A stretch of 64,000 nucleotides of DNA from Obrimoposthia wandeli (taxonomy: Eukaryota). The notes below the pieces were generated by a model that worked only from the letters and a program-made list of their open reading frames with translations, was not told where the DNA came from and ran no database searches. The translations under genes and the position numbers were made by a program. Below, one piece after another: positions 15,149 through 63,615 of this stretch. Every line of letters begins with the position of its first letter. The stretch's first letter is position 1. The DNA lies in assembly GCA_977020255.1 (NCBI GenBank), contig CDROCS010000088.1, positions 1 to 64,000 of the forward strand, written 5' to 3'.

Positions 15149-15177
15149 ACAGAAAATGATTCAAAATCAATTAAAAA

Positions 15178-15565: not shown

Positions 15566-15582
15566 TAAATAATCTATCGAAT

Positions 15583-15997: not shown

Positions 15998-16101
15998 GAT
16001 TCGTTAAGGGCTCAAATGATGTAATACTGTCTCAAGAAAGTATACTGGAAAAAATTACATAATCATTAAATATTATTGGCCAACAAATTTCTTTAGATTA
16101 G

Positions 16102-16107
16102 TATAAA
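16102..16107 (+). promoter_or_regulatory. Candidate TATA box of the pPolB gene in A
   Basis: TATAAA lies about 35 bp upstream of the ATG at 16141. Confidence 0.4.
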
Positions 16108-16140
16108 GTACAGAACGAATCTAAAGAAAGTGCGCACAAT

Positions 16141-20233: not shown

Positions 20234-20488
20234 TTTAAGGAATATATTGTTAAGTGAATTGTGTTTATTTAAACTTGTTTTTCTAACAAATATTCTTTAT
20301 TTTCTTATATAAATTTCAAAATGTATTTTAAAACATAAATTTTAACGTAACCTAGAGTAAAATATCCTTTGATCCTAAACATGCATAAAGCTCTTACATC
20401 ATTTAACCCTTTACACACATTTACTTAGTTTCCCCATTTAGTATTACATCATTTAACCCTTTCCCAGGCTTCCAATATCTTATAATTT

Positions 20489-20820
20489 GAAAATTATGAA
20501 TTTATTCCATCAAAATTAAACTTGACCTAACTAATGACTGGAATTGGCTAACATTCAGTATTTGAAATTATTATTTCTGGATAGCCAGAGAGAAACTATA
20601 TTTAGAAATCAATAAATCATTACTTAAATTTAATTTTAAATCAAACATTTTACCCTTATTATAAATTCAAAAAATTATTGATTTACGAAAATCTGTTGAA
20701 AATTATGTATTTATTCCTTCAAAATTAAACTTGGTCTAACTAATGACTGGAATTGGCTAACAATTGGGATTTGAAATTATTATTTCTGGATAGCCAGAGA
20801 GAAACTCTATTTAGAAACCT
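20489..20820 (+). repeat. Direct repeat, ~120-bp unit, 209-bp period
   Basis: gaaaattatg.atttattcc.tcaaaattaaacttg..ctaactaatgactggaattggctaaca at 20489 and 20698. Confidence 0.85.
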
Positions 20821-20881
20821 TTCAAACACTAACGAATAGTAAATTATTCGAGTAGTATTTCGAGTATTAAAAAGCGTTAGT

Positions 20882-21295
20882 AATCGAGGTGGCCCGAAAG
20901 ACACACGGTTTATTTGGTCTAAAATGAGTGAAATAGCCCTAAAATCCCTTAAAATGCCTCGAAATTCAGGTTTTTGCCTGTAAATTTGCCTAAGACCTAT
21001 ACACATACGTAAAATCTACCTGGAAATATCTCAAAATTGTCCTGAGAGTCGCTTAAACAGCCTCAGGAATCGAGGTGGCCCGAAAGACACACGTTATTTT
21101 TGGTCTAAAATGAGTGAAATAGACCTAAAATCCCTTAAAATGCCTCGAAATTCCAGTTTTTGCCTGTAAATGTGCCTAAGGCCTATACACATGCGTAAAA
21201 TCTACATGGAAATATCTCAAAATTGTCCTGAGAGTCGCTTAAACGGCCTCAGGAATCGAGGTGGCCCGAAAGACACACGTGTTTTTCCGTCTAAA
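20882..21295 (+). repeat. 186-bp subterminal tandem repeats (right end of A)
   Basis: aatcgaggtggcccgaaagacacacg at 20882, 21068 and 21254. Confidence 0.92.
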
Positions 21296-24200
21296 ATATG
21301 TCCGAAAATGACCGAATATTGACCGAAAATGACCGATTTTGTCACGACGATTCGTCTAAATTTGTCCCTAATTTAGGGAGTACAACATGTTTTGACTAAA
21401 ATTTCCAGAAAATTCGTCTAAATTTGTCCCTAATTTAGGGAGTTTGACCAGTTTTGAGTGAAATTTTCTGAAAAAATTCTGTCGCTGGGGAGGGGGGTGG
21501 GGGGGGGGTGGCCCGAAAGACACATATCCCCCTACTCATGTAATAACATATATATGAAAATACCCATAACTGATGATACAGAAGGACATAGACAATGGAT
21601 TCACTTTGACTAATCAGCCCATTTATGGTACTGTAAAAAGCCGAGATTAGACAGACACCAATACTACAAATGTGGTTACTTAAAAATAAAAATTGACAAC
21701 TATTAATTATTAACAAGTAAAACCGACAACAAACGATAACCTTTCAGTTAAAAATACATTTCTATATAAAGTAATATATAATTTTTGCACTCAAACTGAT
21801 GGCGATACATCGAATGTTGCAAAAAAAAAGCACTATAGTAATAAAAATATTCCGCTATTAGATAAGATCCATATAGGCAATTGGGATATGAAACTACCAA
21901 GCATGTCTAGAAACTGAGATTGGAGTTTATCAATGTACAAGATTAAACATAATAGGTCTTCTTTTTAAATATTATTGTGAATCAAAGATTTTGTCTCACA
22001 TAATTTATTATTCCGAAACCAATCTTAAACATAAATTAATAAACACGGATAGTTTTATTTAGAAACTATGAAATATTTTCATTCCAAACATGAAAAATAA
22101 GCCTTTGGACAGGTGACATTTTCAACAAAGTTGCCTTCCTGAAATATTGAATCGGAACAACATAGAAACACAAAGATATTCATGAAATACAGTATGGTGG
22201 TACAATTGTCCTATTTCATCTAGTTAAGATTACAAATATTTATAACTGTCTAGCTGACGTGACTTGCATTTTTTTGTCTGCCACAGCTTATGCTGTACAT
22301 GTTAATAAAAACTTCAGTGCAATGCGCGTGTCTGTTACTTGTTAGACAAATCGCTCACGACAAAAATGAGTTTGATACCATACATCACTATTTTCTGTTA
22401 TATTAGATAACCCTTGTTTAGGTCTATTTGTATGTGCCCAATTTTGTGGCCATCATAGCATTTTAAAATAGTTTTTGACGAGTTTTAAAGTAGTTAAAAT
22501 AAATCGGGATTATTGCTTTGGGTTTTTCAGTATATTTAAACTTTTAAAATAATCTTTAAAAAAATCGTAACAAAAATGAAACAATCTAAATTAAAACACG
22601 CCATTATATACAGGATAATTCAAAGTAATGGTCACAAATTCAATTCCTAGTAATTTACAAAATTTACTTTGTATAGAATACATTTTTCTTTTAATTTCTT
22701 TATAAAATCTCAATTTCATGAGATTAGGAATTGAAGCTGAAATAGTCATTGTGATCACCTTCTACACATAAGTAATTTTTGCTTCAGATAGAGTCAAAAA
22801 TGCTACAATTTACAAATGTAATTAAATTTAAGAAATCAAAGATGCGTTATTATATTGATAAAAATATTCCTAAAAGCAATTTAAAAAAGTCGAACATTCA
22901 TATATTTTATAAGTTTTAATAGAATTATATAAACTTTATTTTTAATCTCTATCAAATGGCCCAGAAAATTCGAATCATTTCTGCTCTAATGGCATATATG
23001 TTTTTAACCCAATATGATTATGATTGATATAAATTACAATGTTAAATTTTTAAAATCCCTTGTTTATTAATCGAATTACCAACTTTGAAAATTTAAAATT
23101 TACAAGAAAGTCATTTATTGAATTTCAGTACAATTTTAATGGTAATTAAATTACGTTAATTGAAATTGCAAAATTAAAATCGTAAAGCAAATATCAAACT
23201 AATGAGCATGTCAGTTGTTTCTTAAAATCTCAATTCTCTGAAAACAATTAATTTAAACACTCAGAGGATGCAATTACTTTTTTCGTGAGTTAGCTAAAAT
23301 TAATTAAGCTAACTGAGAAATCAGTTTCAACAACACGACGAATTTACAGATTTGTCAACAATTCAAACAATTGTTATAATTTCCTTGGAAACTGTTAAAA
23401 AAGAAAGTTAGCCTCAAAATCAATGTATCTAAAATTTGCTACGTCAAGGTTTCACAATTTCATTTACTGAAATGTAGTGATTTTATAACGAATACCTTTG
23501 ACAGCGTTCTTTTCAACATATCGTTATTATTCTATCTCAATTTATTCCCCTTATTTGAAAAAAACTTTTAAAGATAAAAAATTATACTCATACAGTAACA
23601 TACATTTATTCAAATAGACTGAGTCTTTTTACACCGAAAATTACGACATCGAAAGTCGAATTTTATAACTTTAAAACATAAATTTCAAATTGACATAACA
23701 CAAATTAAAAAAAAATGATTACTAAATAATTTTTTTCACTGTTGGATGTTTGTTGATTATTTGTATTTACTATTTTTCATTTATTATCAAAAAAAGTATT
23801 ACAATTTCAGAGTTATGAAAAAGAAACATTGAATTCTGAATCCTTTTTAAATCTGAAATTAAAGTTTCAAAGTTAGGAAATTTTAATTTTTTAAATATTT
23901 ATTTTTTCTTTTATAATAAAATTTTGGTTTAAATTATTAAAATAAGTATTTTATATTTTCGTTCGTTCTCTCTGTGTTTATAAAGAATAATATTTCTATT
24001 GTTATGAAAACTTTTAAATTATATTATAAATTTTCAAAATTTCTGAATCCATTAAAAATAACGAAAAACTCCACAACATCTATTTTTTATAAAAGTTTTA
24101 CGACTAGTGATTTATTTATAGTGAATCAACATTATTTGAAAAAAATTCTTTAGGGATGATAATTTAAATGACTGGATATTAGTCAGTAATTCCTCCTACG

Positions 24201-47430: not shown

Positions 47431-49950
47431 ATGGAGTATAGGCAACTTCAAAACTTCAGTTACTTTTCCCTTTAGTATAGTATTTGTTAATTAAAGTATT
47501 TATATTTGTTTAACTTTCGATTTACGTATAATACAAATTAAGATTTTCTAAATGAAATATAACCACCAGAACATAGAGAATTGCTTGTGTACCATATAGT
47601 TTTTAAACAAAGAAATTATCTAATTCGGTTAAAATAATTTGAAGTTAAATATTTTCATTTATTTCTAAGGTACAAAAATCAACTAAAGCTAAAAATGTCT
47701 GAAAATGAAAGATTTCCGATCATTTAAGTTTCTAAAATTTAAATGATGGCCCATGTCAACTATTATTAAGTTGTTATCAGAACCCATATAAATATTCCAT
47801 TACTGTGTATCCATTATCTAGTCATCTACCACCTGCTGGCGCCAGAAACAAGAAGTAAGTTAGGGACAAAATGTAAAGATAAACGACTAATATCGTTGCA
47901 ATGAAACTATTTGATAAACAATAATTCAGCGAAAAAAAATTGTTTGACTTCATTTTATTATTTTTCAAAAGTTTGGTTAGCGTAATTATCCAAATTCTAA
48001 ATGCCAGTTTACTTGCATACCCTTTTATTGAACCTTTTTATTTATTTTCCATAATGAAAGTCAAAGATGTTGAGACTGCATTTGTATTGAACTTTTAAAA
48101 ACTTCTGCAGATTAATTTCAAATATATAAACAAATTATTCACATGTCCTGTGATGTTGTATGACATCATTCCTGGTACACTGGTCTTCTTCTCAATTCTC
48201 CGAACATTAGAGCTGGATTGTCTGCGTCTATTGCTTGCTCATCTTGTGGGGTCACGAGATTACAATTCTCGTCCGTTTCTTTGAAAATCTCTGTCGCAGT
48301 CGGCCTTATATGGGAGATATACGTTGTCGATGGATTTGTCCCTGTCACTGTTCCTATCTGCCATTGACTTGTGCACCTTCCATCCGTTGGCTTGGCGTAG
48401 ACTTGGTCGTCAGTCCTGTACTAACCGGCTTCAATATCTTGATCATGATCTTGAGGAGACTCCATTATCTGCTTGATTTTTGGAGTTGTGTTATATAAAA
48501 AAAACATTTTGATTAGGCTTCTATTTGTTCGCACTGCCATTCTTTTGATTGTTCTTTGGAATCACTCTACTATCCCATTTCCCTGATGGCGATACGCATA
48601 CCTGAAAAGTAAACAGGCGCACTCCCTCATTTGCAAATCTCTGACAACGCACAAAAACGAAAGCTTCATGAATAATCACATACAATTTCTTTTACTGATC
48701 GTCTTTCTAAGAAACTTCGACGAAGAACATTCGATTTGTTACCAGACATCTTCATTTGGTATCTTTTTCCAAATTGCAAAACAGCTAGGACCACTGTCCA
48801 CAATTGTTAAATATAATAAATAACGATAATATGTAACATCAATTGCAAGCCAGAACCATTCATCATCAACACTTAAACTCCCTTGCTCCCAATATATCGG
48901 TTTGGGATCAATGGATTTACACTTGGCAACTTTGAATAATTTTTAAAATTTCTTTATCATCGATTTCTGTTTCCTGTATCTTTATTAAATATGCTGTCAT
49001 ATCAAAGCCGATTTATTTAATATCTAGTCATTCCAACTACTCCAACTGTCATGTTATTTAAACAGACTCTCGGTACTCTGGTGAGTCTATCAGCTATGTT
49101 CTTTTCCGATCTTACTGTTACTGTAATTTATATGTTCATTTCTTCTTGAATGTTTTTGATGATAACTAACCGTCTCTTTTTTAGAAATTCTGAACTACCT
49201 CGAGTTAGGAATTTACCTTCACCAGTCAATGAGCCGAAATCCACCAAAAGACCGTTTGTGAGTCGGTTATGATCTCAATATTATTCAACCCCATGAAACT
49301 CCCAGGGTGAGGCCCGTTACCACAGCATCAAGTCTAGCAACATTGATGTGTCCGTAATCTGTCTTTTTCCTAAGATGTGATATATCTTCTATTACTCCAT
49401 TGTCGATTTTAACACGAGCACCTAACGCAATATTAATTGCATAACACTATATACGACTTTTTTTTTACTCCCACGTAAACCCTAACCATTTGTCTTACAG
49501 AATCTTCAGTTTTGACCTTGTGTAACACAAAGCTTAACATATTATTTGTTACATCATCATTCTCATCTTCCCATACTATTCCTTCTGCTGTTCTCTTGAT
49601 GTAGCTACAGGCCAATCTTAGCCAACTGGATAGTGTCCAACCACTTGACCACATACTGAGAAAAGCTTACGAGTTATTGGCAAATCACAGTTTGGTTCAT
49701 CGACTTTGTTGTTTATTGATCACATAAGATAATCATTTACCTTTTTTAGACGCAATCCCAGAACTCTTGCCCTATCGATTGGTTCCGGATCTTTCGAGAC
49801 TAGTCCATATTTTAATATATGTTTCTTGACTGTATCTACACTTATTTTACTTGTGTCAACGACAATGTCATATATAACTATCTGTTGCATCAATTATTGT
49901 GTGATATAAAGATAGAACTTTCATTAATATTTTAGTCATAATTCGAGGTG

Positions 49951-50830
49951 AGTAGGTGGAAGGATGGAGTCTAAGCCACTTGACCCCCCCCCAAAGGGTG
50001 TCACTCCATAAGGATGTCACACCATAAAAGGTGTCTTGCCACACCATAAGGGTATATGTTGCCTCACCTCTGGTGAGGCAACATATACCCTTATGGTGTG
50101 GCAAGACACCTTTTATGGTGTGACACCCTTATGGTGTGACACCCTTTAGGGGGAGGGGGGTCAAGTGGCTTAGACTCCATCCTTCCTTGATATACTACTA
50201 TGGTCGTCCATAGTTTAAAGGGTCAAGTGGCTTAGTCTCCACTCTTCTTTTTGAGATATACCACTATGAAAGGGTCAAGTGGCTTAGTCTCCACCCTTCT
50301 TTTTGAGATATACCACTATGAAAGGATCAAGTGGCTTAGTCTCCACCCTTCTTTTTGAGATATACTACTATGAAAGGGTCAAGTGGCTTAGTCTCCACCC
50401 TTCTTTTTGGCTAACTACTAATTCAAAGGATCAAGTGGCTTAGTCTCCACCCTTATTTTTTGTGATCTAGTCCATAATGAAAATTTATGATAAAGTTCAC
50501 ACTTAACAATTAAGAATGTATGACGTAATCATACACACACTATTCTATGTGAAATTTATACTAAGTTCACTCTTATTAGTTAAGAATGTATTACGTAATC
50601 ACACACATACTATTCTATGTGAAAATTTATGATAAAGTTCACTCTTATCAGTTAAGAAATGTGGTTTTTAACACACACATACACTATTTTACGTGAAATT
50701 TAAACTAAAGTTCACTCTTATCAGTTAAGGAATGTATTACGTAATCACACACATACTATTCTATGTGAAAATTTAGATCAAAGTTTTTTCCCAGGCTTAC
50801 ACATCTAAAGAATTATGTTAAAATTTGTAT
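49951..50830 (+). repeat. Left TIR of B: 229-bp palindrome, five 52-bp repeats, ~65-bp AT-rich repeats
   Basis: Palindrome 49958-50186 centred on gcctcacc-TCT-ggtgaggc. tcaagtggcttag cores at 52-bp period (units at 50221, 50273, 50325, 50377, 50429). Confidence 0.95.
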
Positions 50831-50898
50831 TAAATCAAAATTAAATCAAAAATAAATAAGAAAGAAGTCAGAGAATAATACAAAATTAAACACATTTA

Positions 50899-53800
50899 TT
50901 ATGTTATTTCATAATGTCCATAAGCGCGGCTTCTATTTTTCTCGATCCAATAGCGCTTGTCATCTGATGAGCTGAGAGCAGTCTTTTGTATTATGATTGT
51001 ATATAGTTGATGATTTATTGTTCCAAACTTCTTTTGAGGTATAGTATATGCAATACCGTTTTCATACACATCTAAATATGTTTGATGTACAACCGTTGAA
51101 CCCTTAAGATTTACTCCTTTTGCTTTATTATTTTCAAAGTCATCTTCAAACTTAAGTGAATAACATTTACAAAGTAAGAAAATCCATTCTTTATACATTC
51201 TTCCTTCCGATTCATCTTTAAATAAACCTATTTTACTATTAAATTTATTAGAATATAATGGATCATTCACATTATAATTTGACGTATCTAATAATCCATC
51301 TGCAATCATTTTTGGTAACAACTGTTTTCTTAAATTAACGTTTTTACATTCCAAAAAGAATGAATCGGTATCACCGGCAACTATATTAATTGAACAATTG
51401 AATAAATTACGATATATTTGCAAATCATGATACTGAAGAGTATACATTCGTAATTTGCTAAGGTCTAGTACAGCTTGGCCTATATAATTTGGTCGATCGA
51501 GACAAATAAAATCTTTTCTTAATAAAACAGCTATTAAATTATCATGAATTTCAATTGATCGTTGAAACATAGGTTTGCTAGTATATGTGATTAATTTTGT
51601 AGAACTAGTGCAGATGCGAAGATTCAATCGTTTCTTAACATTTTCAACAGTCTTTCTATACAAACTAACATTTTTAAGTTTATAAAAATCTTTGTCACAT
51701 TTATTCGTTGCTTGTGATCTCATTTCTGAATTATATTCTATATATTCTGCGAATATCTTAGCCTGAGAGAATTTTACTGCTCGATGAATAATTGTTACCA
51801 CTGCTCCTAAACTAACATACATCTGCAATAGTCTCCAATGAATAACATAATGACTTTTTGGCGAATGTGTCATTAAAAGTTTTTCAACTTTTTTACCAGG
51901 TGGACATTTCTTTTCTGGAGCTATAGGAAGATCATCTAAAAAGTCATGAAGGTTTTCTGGTATTACCAAGTCTACTTCCATAAAATAACCATATTCAATA
52001 TGTTCCATGTTCACATTTTTCATTTCATGCAATATTTCGTTTAATTTTATATCATCAAGAATCCATTCAAAATCTCCTTTGGTAAAGGTTGATCAAGAGC
52101 CCATCCATATAAATTATTAACATCTATATATAAAAGTCTTGTTTCTTCATCAGCGACTACATGATGCTTATTGACAAATGTCATTCCTCCTCGTATACCC
52201 GAAGAAATCATGTTGTACATTTCAGGATCCTGCATCAGTTCAACCTTATGTTTTAACATTTTTAGTGCACTTGCCCAACTCAACCCAGGAATGCTAAAAA
52301 AGTTAAGTGGTTCTAAACCATCTTCACTGAGAGCTTTTCTTCTGAATGTTTGAAATACGTCAGCTAATAAATATACGTCAGTCTTTAAGTAAACTAACAT
52401 ATAATCCAACATATTTCTACAATTGGTTATTTTCCAAACATCTTGTGCTTTTTGATATTCAGTGTCTGTGATTTTATCATTCCATTTTACTGGTAAACTT
52501 AACTTATTCTGGAGGACATTTAATGATGTAGCAAAATCATATGGGAATATTCCTTTGCCATCAATAAGTTTAGATGGAAAAACTGATCTTGTTAATGGAA
52601 TAGTTGGTAATTTAGTTGCTAAATTTTCCAAAGATGATTGTAAAAATTGCAAAGAATCTATAAATCTCAGAGTTATTTGACCTAATCTTACAATCATGGC
52701 TTGAAACTTTTCCGTTGATTGTGGTATAATATTTATATCCCAGTCAGTAAATTTATTCAATGCATGTTTTAAAATATGATGTAAATCATAACCTCTGAGA
52801 TTATGAAACACAATAGGTAAAGTTGGACGAAGTTTTCTTGATAAATTACATTCATTGCATGCCGGACCTAGATATTTACCAGTAAAGTGATCATGATCTT
52901 TAACATATTTTTCAGATGATTCGTGACATAAATAACATTCATCGGCATTGCTAAATGTATGAATCTCTGCATTTGTTAAGGGAATCATTACGTTTTTAAG
53001 AGCATCTAAATACCATGGCAAAACCTTTTCTTTAGCCAAGTTCTCTATTGACTGAAGAAACTTAACTATGCAGTCATCACCAACATTATATTGATACTGG
53101 GTTTCAATTTCATCTGTACTCATAAATAACATGCCAGATGCGACAGGCATATGCTTTTGATGATAACTCTCATCTGGTACTAATACAGATTCAAAATCAG
53201 CGTAAACGACATATTTCGGTGATATAGTTTTTGACCAATCGTTGAATTTAACGTACTTATTCTTAGGCATAGTATACATTGTAGTGCTTTCTTGATTATA
53301 GTCACATAAAACTTTATGCTTTTCTAATGACAAATCGGTTTTGAAACCATGTAAACACTTTTCACACCATTTTCTGCTAATTCTAGTCGTTCCAGTTCGA
53401 ATATTTAATAGCCGGTTAAGACAACTTATTCCTATATAATGAAATCGTTCCTTGGATTCTAGTAACAATAAATTAACTATAGTTCCTTCCTTCATTTTTG
53501 ATTTGTATGCAACATCGATATAAGGATTCTTGATAACATCAGTTTTTGATTCTTTTTCACTTACCTCGTTGAATATGAATACATTTATTATTATACCAGG
53601 ATTTTGCCGTTCAAATTTTGATATATTTGATATTTTCATAGGCATGTCTTTGGAATTATATACAAAATCATTTAAAAATCTTTCATAGTTGCTTGGTCTA
53701 TTTCTATGTGAGTCTATTTCATTATATTTAAGTATTGACAATATTGCATAAATAAAGCAAAGATTATCAGAGTTTAGAATATTTATGACTGCTTTAGATT

Positions 53801-54534
53801 TTGCAAGAGAATTTGGTGATTTAATATATGAATGACCTGACAATGCACAAATTTGACTATATTTAGTAACAATAAATGCATATTCAAGTATATTCATCAA
53901 TTTCCAACCACTACCTTTTTCTGAATATTCTTCAACTTTATTTTCCATTGTATCTTCCATTTCTGAAATTATAGCATGTGAAAAAATCATTGCTCGATGT
54001 GAAGCATACCATTCTTTAGTTTCTCCATCATTCTTTTCAAACCTCATTCTAATGATGTATTGTATCTTTGCTTTTCCCATTAATTGCACTATTCTTTCTA
54101 GTTCGTTTAATAATGAAACTGGAAAGACTTACAAGATTGAGATGATCTACTTTCATGGATATCATTGAATAACTATTTTCTAATGATGTTTTAGTATGTA
54201 TATTATCATTTATTTTACGTTTTCGTGACGTAATTGTAGGAGCTGAAATTACTATGTTTGATGGTACATTAATTATATCAGTTCTTTTGCTTAAAGCCGG
54301 TACTTTAAATAATTCTTTCTTACTAACATTTTCATATGCTTTTAAATGACTAACATGTCGACTATAAAATAAGTTGTAATCAACATTTTCAGTGCTTAAA
54401 CATTGTGGACATATGAAATAATTTATCTTTTTGTTTGAATAACCATAATATTTTTTCATTATATCATGACATTCTTGAGGATTAAAATGTGTATCCGAAA
54501 AACAAATATTTGAATAAGTTTTACATATACTCAT
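50899..54534 (-). pseudogene. Protein-primed DNA polymerase B of B, split into three frames
   Basis: ORFs 54049-54618, 52047-54089 and 50899-52032 are collinear with pPolB of A. Motifs: NSDNLCFIYA/FHY, VVYADFES, KDHDHFTG..CNECNL, YIDVNNLYG, KLKNVSLYRK, AGDTDS. Frameshifts near 54130 and 52080. Confidence 0.93.
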
Positions 54535-54640
54535 CTGATGATATGATTGATTTGATTGGACTGATTGGATATTGGTTGATTTGTAGACTGAATAAAAAAA
54601 ATATATATATAAATACAATAATTTAATTATTTTACTTACA

Positions 54641-55105
54641 ATGTTAACAAATATTAATTATAAAGGAATTTGCTTAGATGATGTATCCAAATTAAAATTT
54701 CGAACACGACCAGAACAATACGTTTATAAAGCCAAAGATTATACAATACTTATTTTTAGAAATAAGAAATGCAGGATTATGGGATGTAAGGTACCTATTA
54801 AAAATATTTCTTACCCTTTAAGAATAAATATACTTGGTATTCAATCAATTACGATATGTGAAAATTTAGAACAAAGTATCAATCTATTTATATTATCGAA
54901 TGTATTACGTAACGCATGTTCATTTGACCCTGAGGTTTTCCCAGGCTTAAGATTAAATATTTTCAATCCATTGTGTGTAAATATTTTCACATCTGGAAAG
55001 GTCGTAATTTTAGGTCTTAGAAATTTAGATTTTCAAGATCAAGTTAACGATATCATGACATACATTAAAAAAAAATTATATAAATACGAAACAATTTCTA
55101 ATTAA
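54641..55105 (+). CDS. TATA-box-binding protein (TBP)-like protein
   Basis: Second repeat SFDPEVFPGLRLNIFNPLCVNIFTSGKVVILG versus eukaryotic TBP SYEPELFPGLIYRM.KP.IVLLIFVSGKVVLTG. First repeat TILIFRNKKCRIMG versus TALIFSSGKMVCTG. Confidence 0.82.
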   Translation: MLTNINYKGICLDDVSKLKFRTRPEQYVYKAKDYTILIFRNKKCRIMGCKVPIKNISYPLRINILGIQSITICENLEQSINLFILSNVLRNACSFDPEVFPGLRLNIFNPLCVNIFTSGKVVILGLRNLDFQDQVNDIMTYIKKKLYKYETISN

Positions 55106-55278
55106 TTATGGTGAAACAAAGATTTCGGATATTCAAGAAGATGGAAGAAGTCTCATCTGGACCGATTCATACAGCGACCGAATATTTTGATGTTTAATAA
55201 ATATTTAATAAAATGTTGTTATTGTTATAAACATGTACTTATTCTGATATATTTATTTTATATTATTATTTATATATA

Positions 55279-55926
55279 ATGTTATTAACAAACAATTCGA
55301 CTTTTCAAGTAGTAGGACCAAGTGGTAGCGGAAAAACTTTATTTGTTTGTAAATTATTAAATTCAAAAATGTTTAAAAATAAATTTAATAAAATATATTG
55401 GCATCAAGGTGGTGATGGAGAAGCTGGTTTAACAAACCAAGAATTTAATAAAATAAAAAACATTAAGATTATTAACGGTTTTGATGAAAATTGGACGACA
55501 AGACTTGTAAAAGGTGATGTAATTGTTATTGATGACTTATATCAAGAGGCTAACAAAGAATCTGATTTTAATGATTTATTTACAAAAATTGCAAGACATA
55601 GAGAAGTTACTGTAATTTTTATAACCCAAAATTTATTTCATCAAGGAGGAAATCATCGTACTCGTAATCTTAATGTACATTATTTGATTTTATTCAAAAA
55701 TCCTAGAGATCAAACAGTGATAGATTTTATTGCTCGTCAAGCATTTCCTCATAACAAGAGTTATTTAATTGATGCGTTTCATGATGCTACATCTTTACCA
55801 CATGGTTATTTATTTTTAAATTTTACTCAATCATGTCCTGATGATTTAAGAATTGTTACTGATATATTTAACCGTAATGGTATTACAGTCTATAAACAAA
55901 TAAATAATAATAAAGTTTTAAAATAA
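55279..55926 (+). CDS. Packaging ATPase (FtsK/A32-like)
   Basis: Walker A VGPSGSGKT, Walker B VIVIDDL, ITQNLF, and LFKNPRD. Confidence 0.95.
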   Translation: MLLTNNSTFQVVGPSGSGKTLFVCKLLNSKMFKNKFNKIYWHQGGDGEAGLTNQEFNKIKNIKIINGFDENWTTRLVKGDVIVIDDLYQEANKESDFNDLFTKIARHREVTVIFITQNLFHQGGNHRTRNLNVHYLILFKNPRDQTVIDFIARQAFPHNKSYLIDAFHDATSLPHGYLFLNFTQSCPDDLRIVTDIFNRNGITVYKQINNNKVLK

Positions 55927-55927
55927 A

Positions 55928-56341
55928 ATGAATTTTAAAAAGAGTATTCTTAAACATAGTAAAAGGACAGATAAAGATGAAGTTAAAAAATTAATAAATA
56001 CTGTATTATATGATCGTAATAATATTGAATTTTCAAAAAGTTTACCTTATTTTAAAACCTTAATTGACGTACCAAAAACGAATAAAATGAAAATGTTGAA
56101 ATCATTTCCAATTTATGTAGTTGATGATTTAATAAAAATTTTAAATAAAATAATTTATGGTAAAATTAAACCTGATGATAATATTTTAAAATATAAAAAT
56201 TCATTAATAAATTTAGCAAATTCACGTGGTAAAATTAATAAAAGAAACATTATTTATAATCAAAATGGTGGATTCATATTGGCCCTACTGCCCGCTATAG
56301 CATCAGTAATAGCTAGTGTTATATCTTCAAGATGGGGATAG
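55928..56341 (+). CDS. Basic core-like protein with an adenovirus pX-like hydrophobic C-terminus
   Basis: Lys-rich, ending QNGGFILALLPAIASVIASVISS, with a GG|F candidate adenain site. Confidence 0.6.
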   Translation: MNFKKSILKHSKRTDKDEVKKLINTVLYDRNNIEFSKSLPYFKTLIDVPKTNKMKMLKSFPIYVVDDLIKILNKIIYGKIKPDDNILKYKNSLINLANSRGKINKRNIIYNQNGGFILALLPAIASVIASVISSRWG

Positions 56342-56485
56342 TTGTCTTAATAACGAAAATAATTACATTCATTCGTTTTATACAAACATATAAACAGATT
56401 AAAATATATTTAACTTTTATAATAATGGGGATAAACAATACAAAGTTGTCTAACTTATTTATAAATTTTAATTCTTCATGCTGCA

Positions 56486-57511
56486 ATGGAAAAGATTTGG
56501 AACAATCCAGAAGATCCAGACGGTTATACAGGGTTAGAAAAATTGACAAAAAGAGTCAAACAATCAAAAACAAACACACAAAAATGGTTAAGAAATGAAT
56601 TATCATATAGTCTGAATAAACCTTTAAGACGTAAATTCCCTACTAGATCATATAAAACTAATGGTATTAATTCGTTATGGCAGATGGATTTAATGGAAAT
56701 GATTCCTTATTCTTCAGTAAATAATGGATTCAAGTATATTTTAACTTGTATTGATGTATTTAGTCGTTTTGCAAGGGCAGTTGGTGTTAAAACAAAATCA
56801 GGTATTGATTTATTACATGCAATAGAATCTTTAATTGTTGATGATGTACCAGTAAATATCCAAACCGATGAAGGTAAAGAATTTTTTAATTCACATGTTA
56901 AGAAATTATTTAAAACTGAAAATATCAATCATTATTCAGTATATTCTCAATATAAAGCTGCAGTAGTTGAAAGATTTAATAGAACGTTAAGAGAACGGTT
57001 AAAGAAATATTTTACTAAACAAGGTAATAAGAAATGGGTGAATGTATTACCAAAAATTATTTATGCTTATAATAATTCTAAACATAGAGGTTTAGATGGT
57101 TTAAAACCTGTAGATGTAAATAATAAAAATGAATTTGATATTTTGTTGAAACAAAATCTAAAAGAAAAGAAACTTAAATCTAAATATAAAATTGATGATT
57201 ATGTTCGAATATCAAAAATAAGTACAAGTCCATTTATTAAAAATTTTAATCAAAATTGGAGTGATGAGGTTTTTCAAATTCATGATATTAATTATAAACA
57301 AAATCCAATAATGTATATTTTAAAAGATATTGATAACGTCATCATCAAAGGAAAATTTTATAAACAAGAGTTACAATTAATTGATAAACCTAAACTATAT
57401 CGAATACAAGAAATTTTAGAAACTAAAGGTCGTGGTAAGAATAAACAATATTACGTAAAGTGGCACGGATACTCTGAACCTTCTTGGATATTTGCTTCTC
57501 AAATTGAATAA
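56486..57511 (+). CDS. Retroviral-like DDE integrase with C-terminal chromodomain
   Basis: WQMDL, QTDEGKEF, VVERFNRTL; C-terminal IQEILETK..YYVKWHGY. Intact ORF. Confidence 0.96.
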   Translation: MEKIWNNPEDPDGYTGLEKLTKRVKQSKTNTQKWLRNELSYSLNKPLRRKFPTRSYKTNGINSLWQMDLMEMIPYSSVNNGFKYILTCIDVFSRFARAVGVKTKSGIDLLHAIESLIVDDVPVNIQTDEGKEFFNSHVKKLFKTENINHYSVYSQYKAAVVERFNRTLRERLKKYFTKQGNKKWVNVLPKIIYAYNNSKHRGLDGLKPVDVNNKNEFDILLKQNLKEKKLKSKYKIDDYVRISKISTSPFIKNFNQNWSDEVFQIHDINYKQNPIMYILKDIDNVIIKGKFYKQELQLIDKPKLYRIQEILETKGRGKNKQYYVKWHGYSEPSWIFASQIE

Positions 57512-58524
57512 TGTCAAAATATATTATTTTACCTAGTAATAGTTGTCCAAGTACTCAACCTAACAATACAGCCAATCAATTTACTGTAGATTGGGAAAAC
57601 TCTCTAAATTTAGATGGTGAATGGGAGGTTGCCTTGACTGAATTTGTATTTAATTTTACTCCTTTAACAATACAAACTAATTCAAAAATACTTTATAAAA
57701 CGGAAAAGATAGAAATGAAAACTTTCGATGTATCTTTTGCAATTTTAAATGGATTAATTTTTAATAATTTAAATACTGTTTTCAATTTCAAAATTACAAA
57801 GAATCAAAAATTAGAAATAAGTACAATTAACAGTATTCATCGAATGTTGTTAAAATTCGAAACTTTAGAAGAATCAAAAATTATAGGTTTTAATGAAATA
57901 CAAAAAATTTCTAGTCATGTTATAACAAGTGATGAAATTGTTGACATAAATAAAAATATTCATGCTAAAATGAGAATAACAATTTATTATTTAGCTGAAT
58001 ATGAATACGAAATAAAATTTAATCAAAATTATTTGATACAAGATAGTACTTCATTATGTAATATTATAGCCAGTAAATGTAATGAAATTTTTAAAAGCTG
58101 TAATATAGATTCAGACGGATTATTTGATATTTTATTAAAGAAAAATGTAAAATCAGTTTTATTTGACGAAAAACTTGCATCTTTATTAGGTTTTAATAAT
58201 GTTTTCTTTGAGAAACGAATTAAAGGTTTTCAAAAACCAACACTTTCTAGCTCATATAATCAAATGTATATTTATACTAGTTTAACAGATTCTGTCTTAG
58301 TAGGATCTGATTATGTTCCACTGTTAAAGTCTATTTGGTTAAAATCATTAAAATATCGATATGGAGATGTAGTAAATGTTAAAATTGATAATCCAATGTA
58401 CTTGAAAATGAGAGATTCAAGTATTAATAGAATCGAGGTAAATATACGTGATGATTCTGGTAATTTAATTCCATTTTCATATGGAGCAAAAACTAGTTTA
58501 ACTCTTCATTTACGTAAAGTATAA
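57511..58524 (+). CDS. Minor capsid protein (penton)
   Basis: LPSNS..PNNTANQF..L.LDGEWEVALTE; MYIYTSL..VG..VPLLKSI; IEVNIRDDSG.LIPF..G.TSLTLHLR. Confidence 0.88.
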   Translation: MSKYIILPSNSCPSTQPNNTANQFTVDWENSLNLDGEWEVALTEFVFNFTPLTIQTNSKILYKTEKIEMKTFDVSFAILNGLIFNNLNTVFNFKITKNQKLEISTINSIHRMLLKFETLEESKIIGFNEIQKISSHVITSDEIVDINKNIHAKMRITIYYLAEYEYEIKFNQNYLIQDSTSLCNIIASKCNEIFKSCNIDSDGLFDILLKKNVKSVLFDEKLASLLGFNNVFFEKRIKGFQKPTLSSSYNQMYIYTSLTDSVLVGSDYVPLLKSIWLKSLKYRYGDVVNVKIDNPMYLKMRDSSINRIEVNIRDDSGNLIPFSYGAKTSLTLHLRKV

Positions 58525-58567
58525 ACAATATAAATATATTTAAAATATAAATATATATATATATAAA

Positions 58568-58973
58568 ATGAATACATCAATTATAAAATTTTATAGCAAA
58601 AGTCAACAGGGCGGTGAACTTCCCTATTTCATTGGTAAACAATATGGATCTGGTTGGTATCAAACTATTTCTAGATTAGCTATTCCATTGTTAAAAAAAG
58701 TTGGTTTATCAGCAGCTACAAGTGCTGCCAATGTAATTGGTGAAACGGTAGGAACTGCGTTAACAAATCCAAAAACATAATTTCATCTCTCAAAGAAAAT
58801 ACAATCAAAGAAGTCAAAACTTTGATTCCAAAATTAAAAAAATAATGCTGTTGATAGTTTAAATAAAGTCGCAAATTGTGTTGAACAAAATGGAAAGGGT
58901 CTTAAACGTAAAAGAAATAATTTAAATAGTATAAACAAACGTCTTAAAGGTACTATTTTCCAAAATGACTAGT
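58568..58973 (+). CDS. Small core/membrane-active Polinton protein, with two frameshifts in A-runs
   Basis: QQGGELPYFIGKQYGSGW..ISRLAIPLLKKVG. Continues in shifted frames to QNGKGLKRKR..FQND*. Confidence 0.6.
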
Positions 58974-60185
58974 ATAAAATCTGAATTGTGTATTTTCGAT
59001 AGACCACTACCTCAAGTAGTGATTGAAAATTCATGTTTTGAAGAAATATTTCCAATCAATTCAATTACTGGAAAAAATTTAAATGACATAGAATTTAATA
59101 TTCATGCATCTGAAGAAGATTATCTGGATTTGAATGATACTTTGTTAAATATTAAATTAAAAGTTGTAAATGAAGATGGTACTGATTTAATGAAAGATAG
59201 TGATGTAACTCCAGAGAATTACATGTTTCAAACTTTGTTTAGAGATGTTATTCTAACACTTAATAATGTAAAGGTTGAAGGAGGAAATGGAACGTATACT
59301 CATAAGGCTATATTCGATACTCTTTTGAATTTTAGTAGTGATACCAAGTATACTAACCTTGAATGTAGTGGGTATGATGATGAAGCAGAAAATCGTAAAC
59401 AATGGATTAGTGAATCTAAAATATTTTCATTATGTAATTCAATTAGATTAGATTTCTTTGAACAACCAAAATATTTGATTCCAGGGATTAATGTTCATTT
59501 GAGATTTATGAGAAATCAGCATAATTTTTCGCTCTATTCAGAAACTTCAAAACCAATTATTCAAATTCTAGATGCTAGATTGTATGTTAGAAGAGTAAAA
59601 GTTGATTCTTCAGTAATGATTGGACATCAGTTAGGTTTGCAAAGTCAGAATGCAGTTTACCCAATTAGAAAAACTCAGTTAGTAACATATTCAATTCCTC
59701 AGGGTTCTTTGGAACTTAATAAAGATCAAATATTCGGAGACTATCGTTTACCCAAGTTCATTTTGATTGCTTTCAAAGATACACCTCAGGGTGGTAAGGA
59801 ATACAAAGTTAAATCTTCTACGTTCAATACATTTAATGTTTCAACAATATCATTAGCTAGAAATACAGATTATCGAGAAACTTATAATCTAGATAATAAC
59901 AATTTTTCATTAGCATATATGCAGTCAATTATTCGAAATATGAATATTTTAGATAAAAACGTGAATAATGGTATCATATTTTCTGATTTTAAATCAGGAA
60001 GTTCGATTTTCACTTTTCTATTAGCACCAGATTTTGATATAAACACTACTCAAGTGCCTAAAACTGGTAATTTAAGACTTGAAATTAGATTTAATTCTCC
60101 TTTGACCGTTCCAACAAGTGTTTTGATTTACGGAATATTTGATTCCGAAATTCAGATTACGAAAAATAAAACTGTGATTGTATGA
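58965..60185 (+). CDS. Major capsid protein (double jelly-roll)
   Basis: MTSIKSELCIFDRPLPQ..YLDLNDTLL..DFFEQPKYLIPGI..GNLRLEIRF..YGIFDSEIQITK. Intact 406 aa. Confidence 0.92.
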   Translation: MTSIKSELCIFDRPLPQVVIENSCFEEIFPINSITGKNLNDIEFNIHASEEDYLDLNDTLLNIKLKVVNEDGTDLMKDSDVTPENYMFQTLFRDVILTLNNVKVEGGNGTYTHKAIFDTLLNFSSDTKYTNLECSGYDDEAENRKQWISESKIFSLCNSIRLDFFEQPKYLIPGINVHLRFMRNQHNFSLYSETSKPIIQILDARLYVRRVKVDSSVMIGHQLGLQSQNAVYPIRKTQLVTYSIPQGSLELNKDQIFGDYRLPKFILIAFKDTPQGGKEYKVKSSTFNTFNVSTISLARNTDYRETYNLDNNNFSLAYMQSIIRNMNILDKNVNNGIIFSDFKSGSSIFTFLLAPDFDINTTQVPKTGNLRLEIRFNSPLTVPTSVLIYGIFDSEIQITKNKTVIV

Positions 60186-60557
60186 AGTAAGCTTATTGTA
60201 TATTATATTCTTTATTAAAATTAGTACTTTAGAAATTCATAAATCCGGAAAAATATTATTGAATAACAAATTTAATGGAGTATTTCATTGGATAAAATTC
60301 CATCATTAAAACCCGGAGGTTACATTATCAATACTCATACTTCAAATCTACCAGGCGAGCATTGGATAGCAATATTCGTTGACAGATTCGAGATTCGAGT
60401 GTTTGATCCTTTTGGATTCTATTATCCTGCAAAGTTGGTGTCTACACTTGAAAAAGAAAACATTCCAGTCTACTATAATCGAGTTAAATGTCAGAATCCA
60501 TTAACTAAAAACTGCGGACCTCTGAGTCTTTTATGGTTGAAACTTCAACACAAATAA
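60182..60557 (+). CDS. Adenain-type cysteine protease, two exons (60182-60186; 60225-60557), 38-bp intron, 1-nt frameshift near 60285
   Basis: ATG AA|gtaagc...ttag|T ACT gives MNTLEI..FNGVF; then GGYIINT..PGEHWIA..FDPFG..NCGPL. Confidence 0.85.
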
Positions 60558-60611
60558 TTTTAAGTATAAACAAATATATCATTTTAGTATTTCATTTTAT
60601 TTTATTTTCAA

Positions 60612-61064
60612 ATGGCTTTTATTGATTTAGAATGTTTTATTGATAATAATGGAGAATATATTCCAAAGGAATTATGTATAATGTATGTGAATGATATGAC
60701 TTGTCCATTTCATTACGTGTTTAAAAATCAAATACCATGGAGTAGTTTATCATTTACAGTTAAAAGAAAAAATCTATATTTGATAAATCATCATCATCAG
60801 TTATCCTGGTTTGAAGGTGAAAGCTCTGATATTCATATTGATGATGTTGAAACAATATTCTATGTTATGGATTCTATTGATGGAAAGAAAATTAATTTAG
60901 TGAAACGAATGTTTCCAAATTTGAGAATTGTGAATTATAATAAAAGTTTCAAAAATTTAAAGAAAATGCCAAAAAATATTCGATGTCCGTTTAGAAAACA
61001 CGGAAAACATTGTGCTTATTTGAAATGTTTTTCTCTATGTATTGATTATGTAAATTGTATATAA
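60612..61064 (+). CDS. Small DnaQ/DEDD-like accessory protein with a Cys/His C-terminus
   Basis: MAFIDLECFID..YIPKELC (DxE motif); CPF..HGKHCAYLKC. Confidence 0.65.
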   Translation: MAFIDLECFIDNNGEYIPKELCIMYVNDMTCPFHYVFKNQIPWSSLSFTVKRKNLYLINHHHQLSWFEGESSDIHIDDVETIFYVMDSIDGKKINLVKRMFPNLRIVNYNKSFKNLKKMPKNIRCPFRKHGKHCAYLKCFSLCIDYVNCI

Positions 61065-61119
61065 ATATATTTATTAAGGATATTTTATTTTAATATATAA
61101 TTTATGTTATTTAAATAAA

Positions 61120-61872
61120 TTTTACCATAATTCTATAAATGTGAAAGCCTAGGAAAAACTTTAGTTTAAATTTCACATAAAATAGTGTATGTGTGTGTTA
61201 AAAAACGCATTTCTTAATTGATAAGAGTGAACTTTATCATAAATTTCACATAAAATAGTGTATGTGTGTGTTAAAAACCACATTTCTTAATTGTTAAGAG
61301 TGAACTTTATCATAAATTTTCATTATGGACTAGATCACAAAAAAAAGAAGGGTGGAGACTAAGCCACTTGATCCTTTGAATTAGTAGTTAGCCAAAAATA
61401 AGGGTGGAGACTAGACCACAAAAAGATGGGTGGAGACTAGATCACTAAAAGAAGGGTGGAGACTAGATCACTAAAAGATGGGTGGAGACTAAGCCAATTG
61501 ACCCTTTCATAGTGGTATATCTCAAAAAGAAGGGTGGAGACTAAGCCACTTGACCCTTTCATAGTGGTATATCTCAAAAAGAAGGGTGGAGACTAAGCCA
61601 CTTGACCCTTTAAACTATGGACGACCATAGTAGTATATCAAGGAAGGATGGAGTCTAAGCCACTTGACCCCCCCCTAAAGGGTGTCACACCATAAGGGTG
61701 TCACACCATAAAATGTGTCTTGCCACACCATAAGGGTATATGTTGCCTCACCAGAGGTGAGGCAACATATACCCTTATGGTGTGGCAAGACACCTTTTAT
61801 GGTGTGACATCCTTATGGAGTGACACCCTTTGGGGGGGGTCAAGTGGCTTAGACTCCATCCTTCCACCTACT
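61120..61872 (-). repeat. Right TIR of B with palindrome 61642-61865
   Basis: Reverse complement of the left TIR. Centre gcctcacc-AGA-ggtgaggc at 61745-61763. Confidence 0.95.
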
Positions 61873-63615
61873 GAGGTGGACTATTTAAACCGAAACTTAA
61901 CTGAGTAAGTGCATATATCTTCCTATTTGATATTTCCACAAATATATATCAATAGCATTTGTAGATAGGCTGCCTTTAAATTTAAATGTGTCAAATTATC
62001 ATCCATTTTCCTTCACTCCATGAACGTTTCATAACACACACTGAACTATCTCTCGAATGATTTGACATGTATCTATTTAATTAAATAAAATAAAGAACTG
62101 GCCTAACCTTGGCTTTGTTCACCTGTCATTAATGATGTCAATCCGTCAAATTCATCATAAAATTATACGAGCCAACCGTTATCTATCCAAATCTGTAATT
62201 CGGCGCTCCAGTCATCTTTGATGTGAGGATTAATTCCATAATCACTAACTGTGTTTCAAAGAATGGGTGGATCAAATAATCCAATTCCATAAACTTTGCA
62301 CTAAAAACTGCATCATCATCTAAATCGTAAAGGACTTTATTACTAAGCATTCCACTATACACTCCCTACAACCTATCTTAGGTGTTAGAGATTTCTCTAC
62401 ACCTGACTCCACGACCATTTACGTAAATTACATCTATCACTAAATTACTGTCCACTAAAGCCACAGCATCCTTACTATAAACTTTGACGGACATTGTGAC
62501 CATACCCTGAGGCTTGCGTAATGTTGGAAAGCTTCTGGCGCATGTAGCTTCCCGTTAAGGTTTGAGGACAGTCTCGCTTAAAGTGTCCGGAATCTTGTCA
62601 GTTAAAGCACTTAAGTGGCTTTTTCTTTGGATATCTATTTGCAAGGTGGTCAACTGCCTTTCATATAAAACAGGACCTGGTTGCTACAAAAGCTTCTTTC
62701 TTAATGTAAGAGCCGACTCCACGAGCATTATGTGCATTTCTTGATCCAATCCGAATCCTGGCATGAGATAATAGCTTTTCAATCGAGTTTTCGTCATTCT
62801 TTTCGGATACTTGTAACTGCTTAGATAATTCTAGGGAGATCATCAACAAATGCAAGCCGCATCGCTTTACTATACAGCTCAGCATATCTGGCTTGACATT
62901 TGAGGTCAGACAAATATACATTGACTGTTTCTCCATCAACCTCCCGTCGCTCACGGAATTTTCGAAAATATAAGCATAATCTGCGCTATACGTCGAACTT
63001 TCAAGTGGCCTTAGTGCTGAAATTGTAGAAAAAATATCTTCTACGAGAAGAAGTTTTGCCCTCAGCTCCAATGCCGTAAACCGGTTTTTCACATTCTCGC
63101 TTCCAACAAAAATTAGAAAAACGTTCAAATTTCTAATTACTGATGCAATAGCTTATTCCATAATAAAAGTCAAGATGTCGTTGAGACTGCACTTGTATTC
63201 ATCTTTCCAAAACTTCTGCACATAAATTCTAAATATTTACACAAAATTTTCACAATTTATTAAAATTTGTAAGTATTTATAGAAATTAAATATATTAAAT
63301 CGTGAAAAAAATGAAACTTGAAAAATTTCACGACTTCAATTAATAAAATAAATTTGTGTATTAAATTTTTTTTACGATATCTTTTAAAACTCTTATATAT
63401 CTAATCGTTCTTCACACTAAATGAGTTACTAAACCTATGGCACTGAAAAAATAAATCTGGCAATAAAAAACTAAAAGTATAGAAAACGTTTGTTAAAGAT
63501 TCAAGCAAGCTGTCTAGTATTTTTTTAGTCAAAAAATATTATTTATTTAAAAAATCCAATAATCTTTCAATTTTAAAATAACGTTTGTGTTGTAATAAGC
63601 TAGTATGTAACCAAC

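What the first reader, a model, noticed from the sequence alone, without database searches (positions are those of the whole stretch)
49951..50190. Each TIR of B contains a ~230-bp near-perfect hairpin starting 7 nt from the terminus
Seen: arms 49958-50068 and 50072-50186 with a 3-nt loop (TCT), mirrored at 61642-61865. The arms carry nested gtcacaccataag repeats, and arm-specific mismatches are the same in both TIRs, so no flip/flop is visible in this copy. AGTAGGT stays unpaired. Established: protein-primed replication does not need terminal palindromes, whereas parvoviruses use them for hairpin priming; this pPolB class carries an HNH/endonuclease VII-like insert (CYLC..DHDH.TG..CN, seen here). 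Inference: ends may extrude cruciforms or fold back in displaced ssDNA, perhaps processed by that nuclease for excision, priming or resolution. This would be an unusual Polinton replication system.
Basis: partly seen in the sequence, partly recalled or inferred. Interest (0 to 1): 0.8.

Follow-up and report, generated by a model that had tools for sequence, protein, structure and literature searches.

The report
Fold-back hairpin ends of a Polinton
A virus-like transposon (Polinton) has a long DNA hairpin at both ends, and several distant relatives have shorter, co-varying end hairpins, which suggests an overlooked end structure used when these elements copy themselves.

Summary
The hairpin is real. 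Both ends of an 11.9-kb Polinton (49951-61872, 6-bp TSD) fold into a ~110-bp stem with a TCT loop (-144.7 kcal/mol, z -28). Three arm asymmetries are shared by both ends, so the hairpin was inherited through replication. The inner arm ends near an inverted copy of the terminus with a longer spacer.

Terminal fold-backs of 104-159 nt also occur in two other lineages of this polymerase class (7 termini). In one, 15 of 31 pairs change on both sides, and 6 of 7 termini carry one extra base at position 20 of the inner copy. No flip/flop was seen.

The HNH link is unsupported: the motif is class-wide (98 of 120 homologs) and present in relatives without a hairpin, including element A in this window. 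The terminal-protein serine and vOTU cysteine are kept.

Best reading (0.45): an asymmetric fold-back end acting on single-stranded intermediates alongside protein priming. B's own 3' end is unpaired, so it is a poor primer. Terminal palindromes are reported in protist virophages/PLVs; my searches found none for pPolB Polintons. B's own family stayed untested.

The parts
49945..49950 (.). Left target-site duplication GAGGTG
49951..61872 (.). Polinton B, 11.9 kb
49951..50639 (+). Left TIR (88% identical to 61157-61872 overall; 2 substitutions and 2 homopolymer indels in the first 374 nt)
49951..49957 (+). Unpaired terminus AGTAGGT (Polinton-type end; slide-back role is recalled, not tested)
49958..50068 (+). 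Left outer arm: motif M (about 49958-49983), poly-C, 16-bp repeats with GGTGT-N-ACACC mini-dyads
50069..50071 (+). Loop TCT
50072..50186 (+). Left inner arm
50194..50199 (-). Inverted pseudo-terminus (AGTAGT on the minus strand), 6 nt further from motif M than the true terminus
50217..50460 (-). 52-bp tandem array (4.7 copies): inverted copies of motif M, 4 of 5 preceded by AGTAGT or AGTGGT
50478..50785 (.). 73-bp subterminal tandem array
50899..54534 (-). pPolB gene, split into three ORFs in this copy (54534-54049, 54080-52047, 52023-50899)
53904..53915 (-). GSGW loop between predicted helix 35-55 and strand 60-73: predicted terminal-protein linking serine, followed by the vOTU NxDxxCF motif
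   Evidence: position rule from PMC11071308 section 7
52845..52937 (-). HNH / Endonuclease VII-like insert
54641..55105 (+). TBP-like gene
   Evidence: Pfam PF00352 E 4e-12
55279..55926 (+). A32-like packaging ATPase
56486..57511 (+). rve integrase with chromo-like C-terminus
57511..58524 (+). Probable minor capsid protein (inferred from position; look-alikes unnamed)
58965..60185 (+). [quoted passage not shown]
   Evidence: ESM Atlas look-alike clusters with PF21738 on 15-30% of members; a lead only
60285..60539 (+). Broken adenain-like protease gene, 59% identical to A's (family name recalled from the motif)
61157..61872 (-). Right TIR
61629..61634 (+). Right inverted pseudo-terminus AGTAGT
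61642..61865 (-). Right hairpin: inner arm 61642-61752, loop 61753-61755, outer arm 61756-61865
61873..61878 (.). Right target-site duplication GAGGTG
12111..21536 (.). Element A, internal control: related Polinton (TSD CATGTA), same pPolB subclade and HNH motif, no terminal hairpin at either end

Best explanation
The hairpin is an inherited cis-element: the terminal origin region plus an inverted, deliberately mis-spaced inner copy of it, in an otherwise protein-primed Polinton. Step 1 (shown by anatomy): the element inserts through its rve integrase with a 6-bp TSD. Step 2 (inferred from retained motifs): first-strand synthesis is primed by the terminal-protein serine at the AGTAG end. Step 3 (computed, not observed): each end of the displaced or excised single strand snaps back into the hairpin. 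Step 4 (inferred): the fold-back serves complementary-strand synthesis or regeneration of the 3' end. In relatives the folded 3' end is fully paired and is a ready primer. In B the last 7 nt stay free, so the likelier use is a protected duplex origin motif with two complementary 7-nt toeholds that convert to the more stable TIR-TIR panhandle; self-priming would need a slip across a 2x8 loop or trimming. Step 5 (inferred): the extra base(s) on the inner copy stop it being read as a real end, so the orientation stays fixed. No nuclease is identified.
For: Three arm asymmetries shared by both TIRs, against about 0.5% substitution between TIRs. Two other lineages have terminal fold-backs: L030/L011/L005 (z -12.4, -3.8, -5.3; 9 of 40 pairs change on both sides) and L009/L058/L044/L046 (z -7 to -21; 15 of 31 pairs change on both sides, 0 on one side, 0 of 500 shuffles as high). 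One extra base at position 20 of the inner copy in 6 of 7 such termini, at 27 in L044, +6 in B, never on the outer arm in these 8; flanking pairs co-vary, so plain conversion should have erased it. Loops are in one orientation in 4 of 4 and 3 of 3. The 3' terminal base is paired with P >= 0.91 in 4 of 5 complete relatives. TP serine loop and vOTU Cys/His are kept. Panhandle -480 versus separate hairpins -306 kcal/mol. Precedents: a 1-nt spacer silences one arm of the MVM left-end origin (PMC1185569 passages); fold-back repair of TP-capped Streptomyces ends (PMC5449611).
Against: Dispensable: 6 of 15 placed elements lack it, including B's sister A and L022, a close relative of L046; the label needs 5 changes on the pPolB tree and is not clustered (390 of 500 shuffles as low). 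B's 3' tail is paired with P only 0.02-0.19, and pairing it costs about 7 kcal/mol against the best fold. In phi29, origins with single-stranded tails or a 5' hairpin are poor (PMC4150772 abstract and Discussion). Covariation can come from copying between arms without selection. Only 3 and 4 sequences per family, two of them near-copies. L018's inner copy is shorter and degenerate, against the pattern. No other copy of B's family was available, and homology between B's hairpin and the others is not shown.
Confidence: 0.45

Rival explanations
1. Near-neutral by-product. Template switching between the terminal motif and an older inverted copy made the palindrome, repeated switching keeps the arms alike, and ordinary panhandle replication copies it to both ends.
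For: B's stem ends exactly where homology between the terminal motif and the array unit ends; the first inner unit has terminus-type M but an array-type spacer, like a conversion tract. Patchy presence among close relatives. The panhandle still wins thermodynamically. The Halocafeteria preprint names accidental annealing as an alternative.
Against: A 1-nt asymmetry at the same position in two families with different terminal repeats, kept while both flanks co-vary; recurrence in three lineages.
Confidence: 0.25
2. The symmetry acts in duplex DNA. Outer and inner copies are inverted protein-binding sites (integrase, packaging or promoter factors), and no hairpin needs to form.
For: The inner motif is amplified into a 52-bp array in B, with a similar short array in L018. 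In the two other families the hairpin lies about 70-180 nt upstream of the pPolB start. B and L018 share a TBP-like gene.
Against: Binding sites predict conserved sequence, but the arms diverge between relatives while staying complementary (outer-to-own-inner 26-29 of 30 nt versus 17-24 across elements). B's pairing runs 110 bp, far beyond motif M.
Confidence: 0.15
3. One reading: the HNH/Endonuclease VII insert cuts a cruciform or hairpin to excise the element or to resolve hairpin-primed intermediates, largely replacing protein priming.
For: All hairpin-bearing elements checked carry the HNH motif with DH and CN residues; relatives have primer-ready 3' ends.
Against: The motif is class-wide and present without hairpins. 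The TP serine and vOTU are kept. B's terminus is not a copy of the inner arm, so symmetric hairpin transfer is excluded for recent rounds. No flip/flop. A cruciform in B would branch 7 bp inside the element, not at the host junction. PMC11071308 reads such inserts as homing-endonuclease invasions (passage).
Confidence: 0.12
4. Assembly chimera, or a fold-back MITE inserted at the ends.
For: Reading-frame breaks in three genes (four breaks) could mean an indel-prone assembly; a separate fold-back element lies at 10711-10976; L044 is a chimeric contig.
Against: Perfect TSD, shared arm substitutions at both ends with TIR-private differences; no TSD around the hairpins themselves in B or 6 relatives; independent relatives.
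Confidence: 0.02

Closest known systems
Polintons/Mavericks with nuclease-insert pPolB (pPolB2-type; PMC10748475, passages)
   Same: pPolB, rve integrase, ATPase, protease, probable capsids, TIRs, 6-bp TSD, HNH-type insert
   Different: That paper's main text has no 'hairpin' or 'cruciform' and no 'palindrom'. B is small (11.9 kb vs 13-25 kb quoted there), has a TBP-like gene and a 230-nt terminal fold-back.
Halocafeteria endogenous virophages and PLV subtype 4 (bioRxiv 10.64898/2026.07.28.741278, passages and section 7)
   Same: Palindromes in the TIRs next to the TSD; hairpin priming proposed, accidental annealing as the alternative
   Different: About 52 nt, mostly in elements with non-pPolB replicases, in a protist. 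Here the element has a TP-bearing pPolB, a longer stem and a mis-spaced inner copy.
Parvovirus MVM left-end hairpin (PMC1185569, passages)
   Same: Terminal fold-back with a small spacer asymmetry that could make only one arm active; single orientation reported for a left end
   Different: No HUH/NS1 protein here; dsDNA integrating element with protein priming; B's last 7 nt are unpaired. Analogy only.
Streptomyces Tpg/Tap telomeres (PMC5449611, passages)
   Same: TP-capped linear replicon whose single-stranded 3' end folds back and can template end repair
   Different: Several short palindromes, internal origin, dedicated primase Tap; unrelated proteins.
phi29/adenovirus-type protein-primed origins (PMC4150772, abstract and Discussion part 1)
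   Same: pPolB fold (best PDB match is phi29 polymerase), short terminal repeat, panhandle possible
   Different: No terminal fold-back; in phi29 single-stranded tails or a 5' hairpin reduce activity.

Membership tests
Polinton/Maverick | Protein-primed family B polymerase with N-terminal TP and vOTU domains | tested here: met
   324 homologs, many with PF03175; model matches phi29 polymerase, E 4.5e-4; GSGW and NxDxxCF motifs. The gene is in three ORFs in this copy.
Polinton/Maverick | Retroviral-like (rve) integrase | tested here: met
   PF00665 above cutoff
Polinton/Maverick | TIRs of hundreds of bp, AG...CT ends, 5-8 bp TSD | tested here: met
   ~690-bp TIRs, AGTAG ends, 6-bp TSD
Polinton/Maverick | Packaging ATPase and maturation protease | tested here: met
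   Pox_A32 above cutoff; broken protease gene, 59% to A's, family named from a recalled motif
Polinton/Maverick | Double jelly-roll major and minor capsid proteins | tested here: inconclusive
   No Pfam hit; Atlas look-alikes carry PF21738 on 15-30% of members, recognition score under threshold
Nuclease-insert pPolB class | HNH/Endonuclease VII insert in pPolB | tested here: met
   PF02945 above cutoff; identity with the nematode/oomycete insert was not tested
Rolling-hairpin replicon (parvovirus type) | Terminus is an exact copy of the inner arm, so the 3' end is paired | tested here: not met
   B: 7 unpaired nt, P(paired) 0.02-0.19. Met in L009, L058, L046, L030.
Rolling-hairpin replicon (parvovirus type) | HUH/Rep nickase | tested here: not met
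   None among 12 ORFs scanned against Pfam
Rolling-hairpin replicon (parvovirus type) | Flip/flop hairpin isomers | tested here: inconclusive
   None in B's 2 ends or in 4 of 4 and 3 of 3 relatives; small n, and single-orientation ends exist in parvoviruses
Rolling-hairpin replicon (parvovirus type) | Hairpin-bridged replicative intermediates | not testable with these tools
   Needs reads or DNA from free genomes
Fold-back MITE insertion | TSD flanking the hairpin itself | tested here: not met
   0-2 nt direct repeats around 6 relatives' hairpins, none around B's 49951-50199

The most novel reading that the evidence does not exclude
Polintons of this polymerase class run a hybrid cycle: TP priming for the first strand, snap-back self-priming for the second, and MVM-like asymmetric resolution of the hairpin-bridged dimer, with the pPolB HNH insert as the nickase that reads the 1-nt (in B, 6-nt) spacer difference and so restores one fixed end orientation.
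Probability: 0.15. Interest if true: 0.9.

Novelty: new variant of a known kind. Interest (0 to 1): 0.62.

Why it matters
How Polintons leave the chromosome and copy their second strand has never been shown; the racket/panhandle model is a proposal (as redrawn in the Halocafeteria preprint). A recurring, co-varying terminal fold-back with a conserved spacer asymmetry gives defined short DNA substrates and natural with/without pairs (B vs A, L046 vs L022). With these, self-priming, end repair and HNH cleavage can be tested directly. If functional, it links protein-primed and hairpin-primed replication within one lineage. Such ends also matter for annotation, since they can break or truncate assemblies.

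Tried and rejected
Other copies of B's TIR: none elsewhere in the window or in the 64 loci. No fetched locus falls in B's own pPolB subclade among those placed on trees, so covariation and flip/flop in B's family stayed untested. tblastn against phage records found nothing. A PDB sequence search found nothing; Foldseek of the whole model gave only phi29 polymerase at E <= 0.001 and did not separately confirm the TP, vOTU or HNH folds.

Pairing B's terminal 5 nt with the inner pseudo-terminus is unfavourable: +1.4 kcal/mol locally and about 7 against the best fold. A motif scan limited to AGTAG starts missed the ACAC-type termini; they were found by an upstream-of-pPolB scan of 50 of the 64 loci, so those four were ascertained through their hairpins.

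Five candidate termini (L010, L013, L023, L027, L032) could not be verified and were left out of the count; none folded strongly (z -2.4 to +0.3). L007's terminus runs into an assembly gap at +110, so its 'no hairpin' call is uncertain. Hairpins in L049 and L057 near pPolB were left unassigned. Palindromes in L046:719-1223, L056 and L009:8046-8213 look like host fold-back elements and were not counted.

Kapitonov and Jurka 2006 is not held; Repbase entries could not be seen. No supplementary files were read; those of the bioRxiv preprints were closed and may bear on novelty. The host organism was not determined.

Full report
OBSERVATION. The finding is accurate. Positions 49958-50068 pair with 50072-50186 around a TCT loop, mirrored at 61642-61865. 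The first 300 nt fold at -144.7 kcal/mol; 0 of 200 dinucleotide shuffles reach this (mean -39.0, z -28). The two ends are the two most stable of 425 windows of 300 nt. The element spans 49951-61872, has a 6-bp TSD and ~690-bp TIRs. It encodes pPolB (three ORFs in this copy), a TBP-like protein, an A32-like ATPase, an rve integrase, probable capsid proteins, a broken protease and a 150-aa ORF shared with A. It is a Polinton; the capsid assignments are leads only.

HISTORY OF THE HAIRPIN. Three outer/inner differences (two substitutions, one extra T) are present in both TIRs. The TIRs differ from each other by only 2 substitutions and 2 homopolymer indels in 374 nt. The simplest reading is that the hairpin and its asymmetries predate this insertion and passed through replication; later conversion between TIRs is the alternative. 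The stem stops where the terminal motif M stops matching, and 7 nt further lies ACTACT. Read outward, the inner arm is an inverted copy of the whole terminus with a spacer 6 nt longer. The 52-bp array holds further inverted copies of M, 4 of 5 with the AGTAGT/AGTGGT start. Array copies differ from the terminal M at 2-3 positions where the inner arm is identical to it. So the inverted arrangement is old and the arms were homogenised later. Because both true ends read AGTAGGT and not the inner type, the ends were not templated from the inner arm in recent rounds, which excludes simple hairpin transfer (inference from sequence).

THE POLYMERASE. The middle ORF has 324 homologs at E <= 1e-30, and its model matches phi29 polymerase. 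A serine sits in a GSGW loop between a predicted helix and strand, where PMC11071308 (section 7) places the linking residue of Polinton terminal proteins; the vOTU Cys and His motifs are kept. Protein priming therefore looks retained. The HNH motif is present but class-wide: 98 of the 120 listed homologs and 40 of 64 loci by a strict pattern, many loci being partial, plus three more by tblastn. Element A in this window (12111-21536, own TSD) is in B's pPolB subclade (100/99; 100/100), has the motif, and has no fold-back at either end (z +1.2 and -0.9). A is rearranged and its ends differ, so it is an imperfect control.

RELATIVES. One scan of GTDB contigs returned 64 loci with related pPolB, which I take to be eukaryotic DNA binned into prokaryotic MAGs (inference). 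None matches B's TIR. Family 1 (L030, L011, L005): a ~129-nt fold-back from AGTAGT to ACTACT upstream of pPolB, with no Polinton gene upstream in L030; z -12.4, -3.8, -5.3; 9 of 40 pairs change on both sides. L011 and L005 are near-copies and are truncated by about 9-11 nt. Family 2 (L009, L058, L044, L046): 104-159-nt fold-backs starting ACACACAT; z -7 to -21, 0 of 100 shuffles each, against 1 of 60 random windows at z <= -3.8. On my alignment-based structure, 15 of 31 pairs change on both sides, none on one side, 0 of 500 shuffles as high; the tool warns that relatedness alone can beat shuffles, and n is 4. A GGTTCTG-like motif at the same offset aligns these starts with AGTAGT termini of L007, L022 and L018. 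There is no TSD around the hairpins, and upstream lies a LINE-like fragment in L009 and bacterial genes in L044, a chimeric contig. L018, which has B's gene set including TBP, has a weak 65-nt fold-back followed by repeats of its inner arm (z -4.0). Of 15 elements whose end I could place, 9 fold back (B, L018 weakly, and the seven above) and 6 do not (A, L007, L022, L028, L038, L045). This count is biased upward because four ends were found through their hairpins, only A and B have TSD-confirmed ends, and five unverified candidates were dropped. On a pPolB tree of 24 rows (L044 and L023 too short) the label needs 5 changes and is not clustered; L022 (none) sits beside L046 (fold-back).

THE ASYMMETRY. 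In L009, L058, L046, L030, L011 and L005 the inner copy has one extra base after position 19. L044 has it at 27 and B has six extra near position 6-8. It is never on the outer arm in these eight; L018's degenerate inner copy is shorter. Loops are in one orientation in 4 of 4 and 3 of 3 termini. With B's two ends, and counting L005/L011 once, that is about 1 in 32 under free flip/flop (my arithmetic; integration could select one orientation). A small spacer that silences one arm is known from the MVM left-end origin (PMC1185569, passages). In 4 of 5 complete relatives the folded 3' terminal base is paired with P >= 0.91 (L044 0.40); in B the last 7 nt are paired with P 0.02-0.19.

MECHANISM. 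I favour (0.45) a functional, asymmetric fold-back acting on single-stranded intermediates of a TP-primed element. In relatives it offers a ready primer or an end-repair template, as TP-capped Streptomyces telomeres do (PMC5449611, passages). In B it more likely gives a protected duplex origin with two complementary 7-nt tails that convert to the panhandle (-480 vs -306 kcal/mol). Against this: close relatives do without it, B's own 3' end is a poor primer, and phi29 origins with single-stranded tails or a 5' hairpin work badly (PMC4150772). Rivals: template-switch by-product (0.25), duplex binding-site symmetry (0.15), HNH-driven excision or resolution (0.12), artefact or MITE (0.02). Only the sequence anatomy, the covariation and the folding energies are shown; every step in the cell is inferred.

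WHAT IS IN PRINT. Ten full-text searches (result listings) found one direct precedent. A 2026 preprint reports palindromes in TIRs next to the TSD in Halocafeteria virophages and one PLV subtype, mostly with non-pPolB replicases, and proposes hairpin priming (10.64898/2026.07.28.741278, passages and section 7). Passages of PMC10748475, PMC11071308, PMC6431247, PMC11296320, PMC12747079, 10.64898/2026.10.13.758929, 10.1101/2022.07.28.501842 and 10.1101/2022.05.25.493380 describe no terminal fold-back in pPolB Polintons. Kapitonov and Jurka 2006 was not held; I recall, unverified, that it mentions a palindrome in a non-autonomous element. Repbase, subscription papers and supplements were not seen.

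VERDICT. A real, inherited feature and the extreme case of a recurring, co-varying terminal fold-back in this Polinton class. The HNH coupling is unsupported. New variant of a known kind; interest 0.62.

Noticed in passing
window 54641-55105 (+); L018 2029-2415: TATA-binding-protein-like gene inside the Polinton (Pfam TBP E 4e-12), also in L018 (47% identity). One literature search listed 5 papers, none titled on Polinton TBP (listing only).
   Followed up: partly
L009:9383, L058:2544, L044:9501, L046:2065: Polinton-like ends that start ACACACAT instead of AG(T), in register with AGTAGT ends of close relatives (L007, L022); the end type appears to switch between near relatives.
   Followed up: partly
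window 12111-21536: Element A: related Polinton with TSD CATGTA but dissimilar ends, an inverted partial duplicate of the pPolB 3' part (12815-13385 vs 19644-20215, 72%), no integrase or ATPase found, and terminal motif repeated in direct orientation.
   Followed up: partly
window 10711-10976 and 3133-3355: Separate AT-rich fold-back element (126-nt arms, 83%) with a partial second copy; probably a host MITE.
   Followed up: no
proteins P0051, P0056, P0069, P0081, P0088, P0105: The Endonuclease VII-like motif occurs in pPolBs named from a coral, sea slug, midge, wasp, beetle and mussel, wider than the nematode/oomycete range given for the HNH insert in PMC10748475; whether it is the same insertion was not tested.
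   Followed up: no
loci, e.g. L044, L060: 64 Polinton-type pPolB loci sit in prokaryotic GTDB MAGs, apparently as contamination; L044 joins bacterial carAB-like genes directly to a Polinton end.
   Followed up: partly
L018 versus window B: L018 shares B's integrase, ATPase, capsid, TBP and protease set (29-59% identity), but its pPolB lies outside B's subclade and the gene order differs, suggesting replicase module exchange.
   Followed up: partly
window 50899-54534, 58568-58965, 60185-60612: Reading-frame breaks in pPolB (two), the small core-like gene and the protease; decay or assembly indels.
   Followed up: no
L049:1-76; L057:1251-1316; L048:1-60: Further hairpins near pPolB genes or at contig starts that could not be tied to an element end.
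   Followed up: partly
window about 6300-10400 and 4427-4825: Decayed BEL/Pao-like retrotransposon fragments and an importin-alpha-like ARM fragment (names recalled from motifs, not searched).
   Followed up: no
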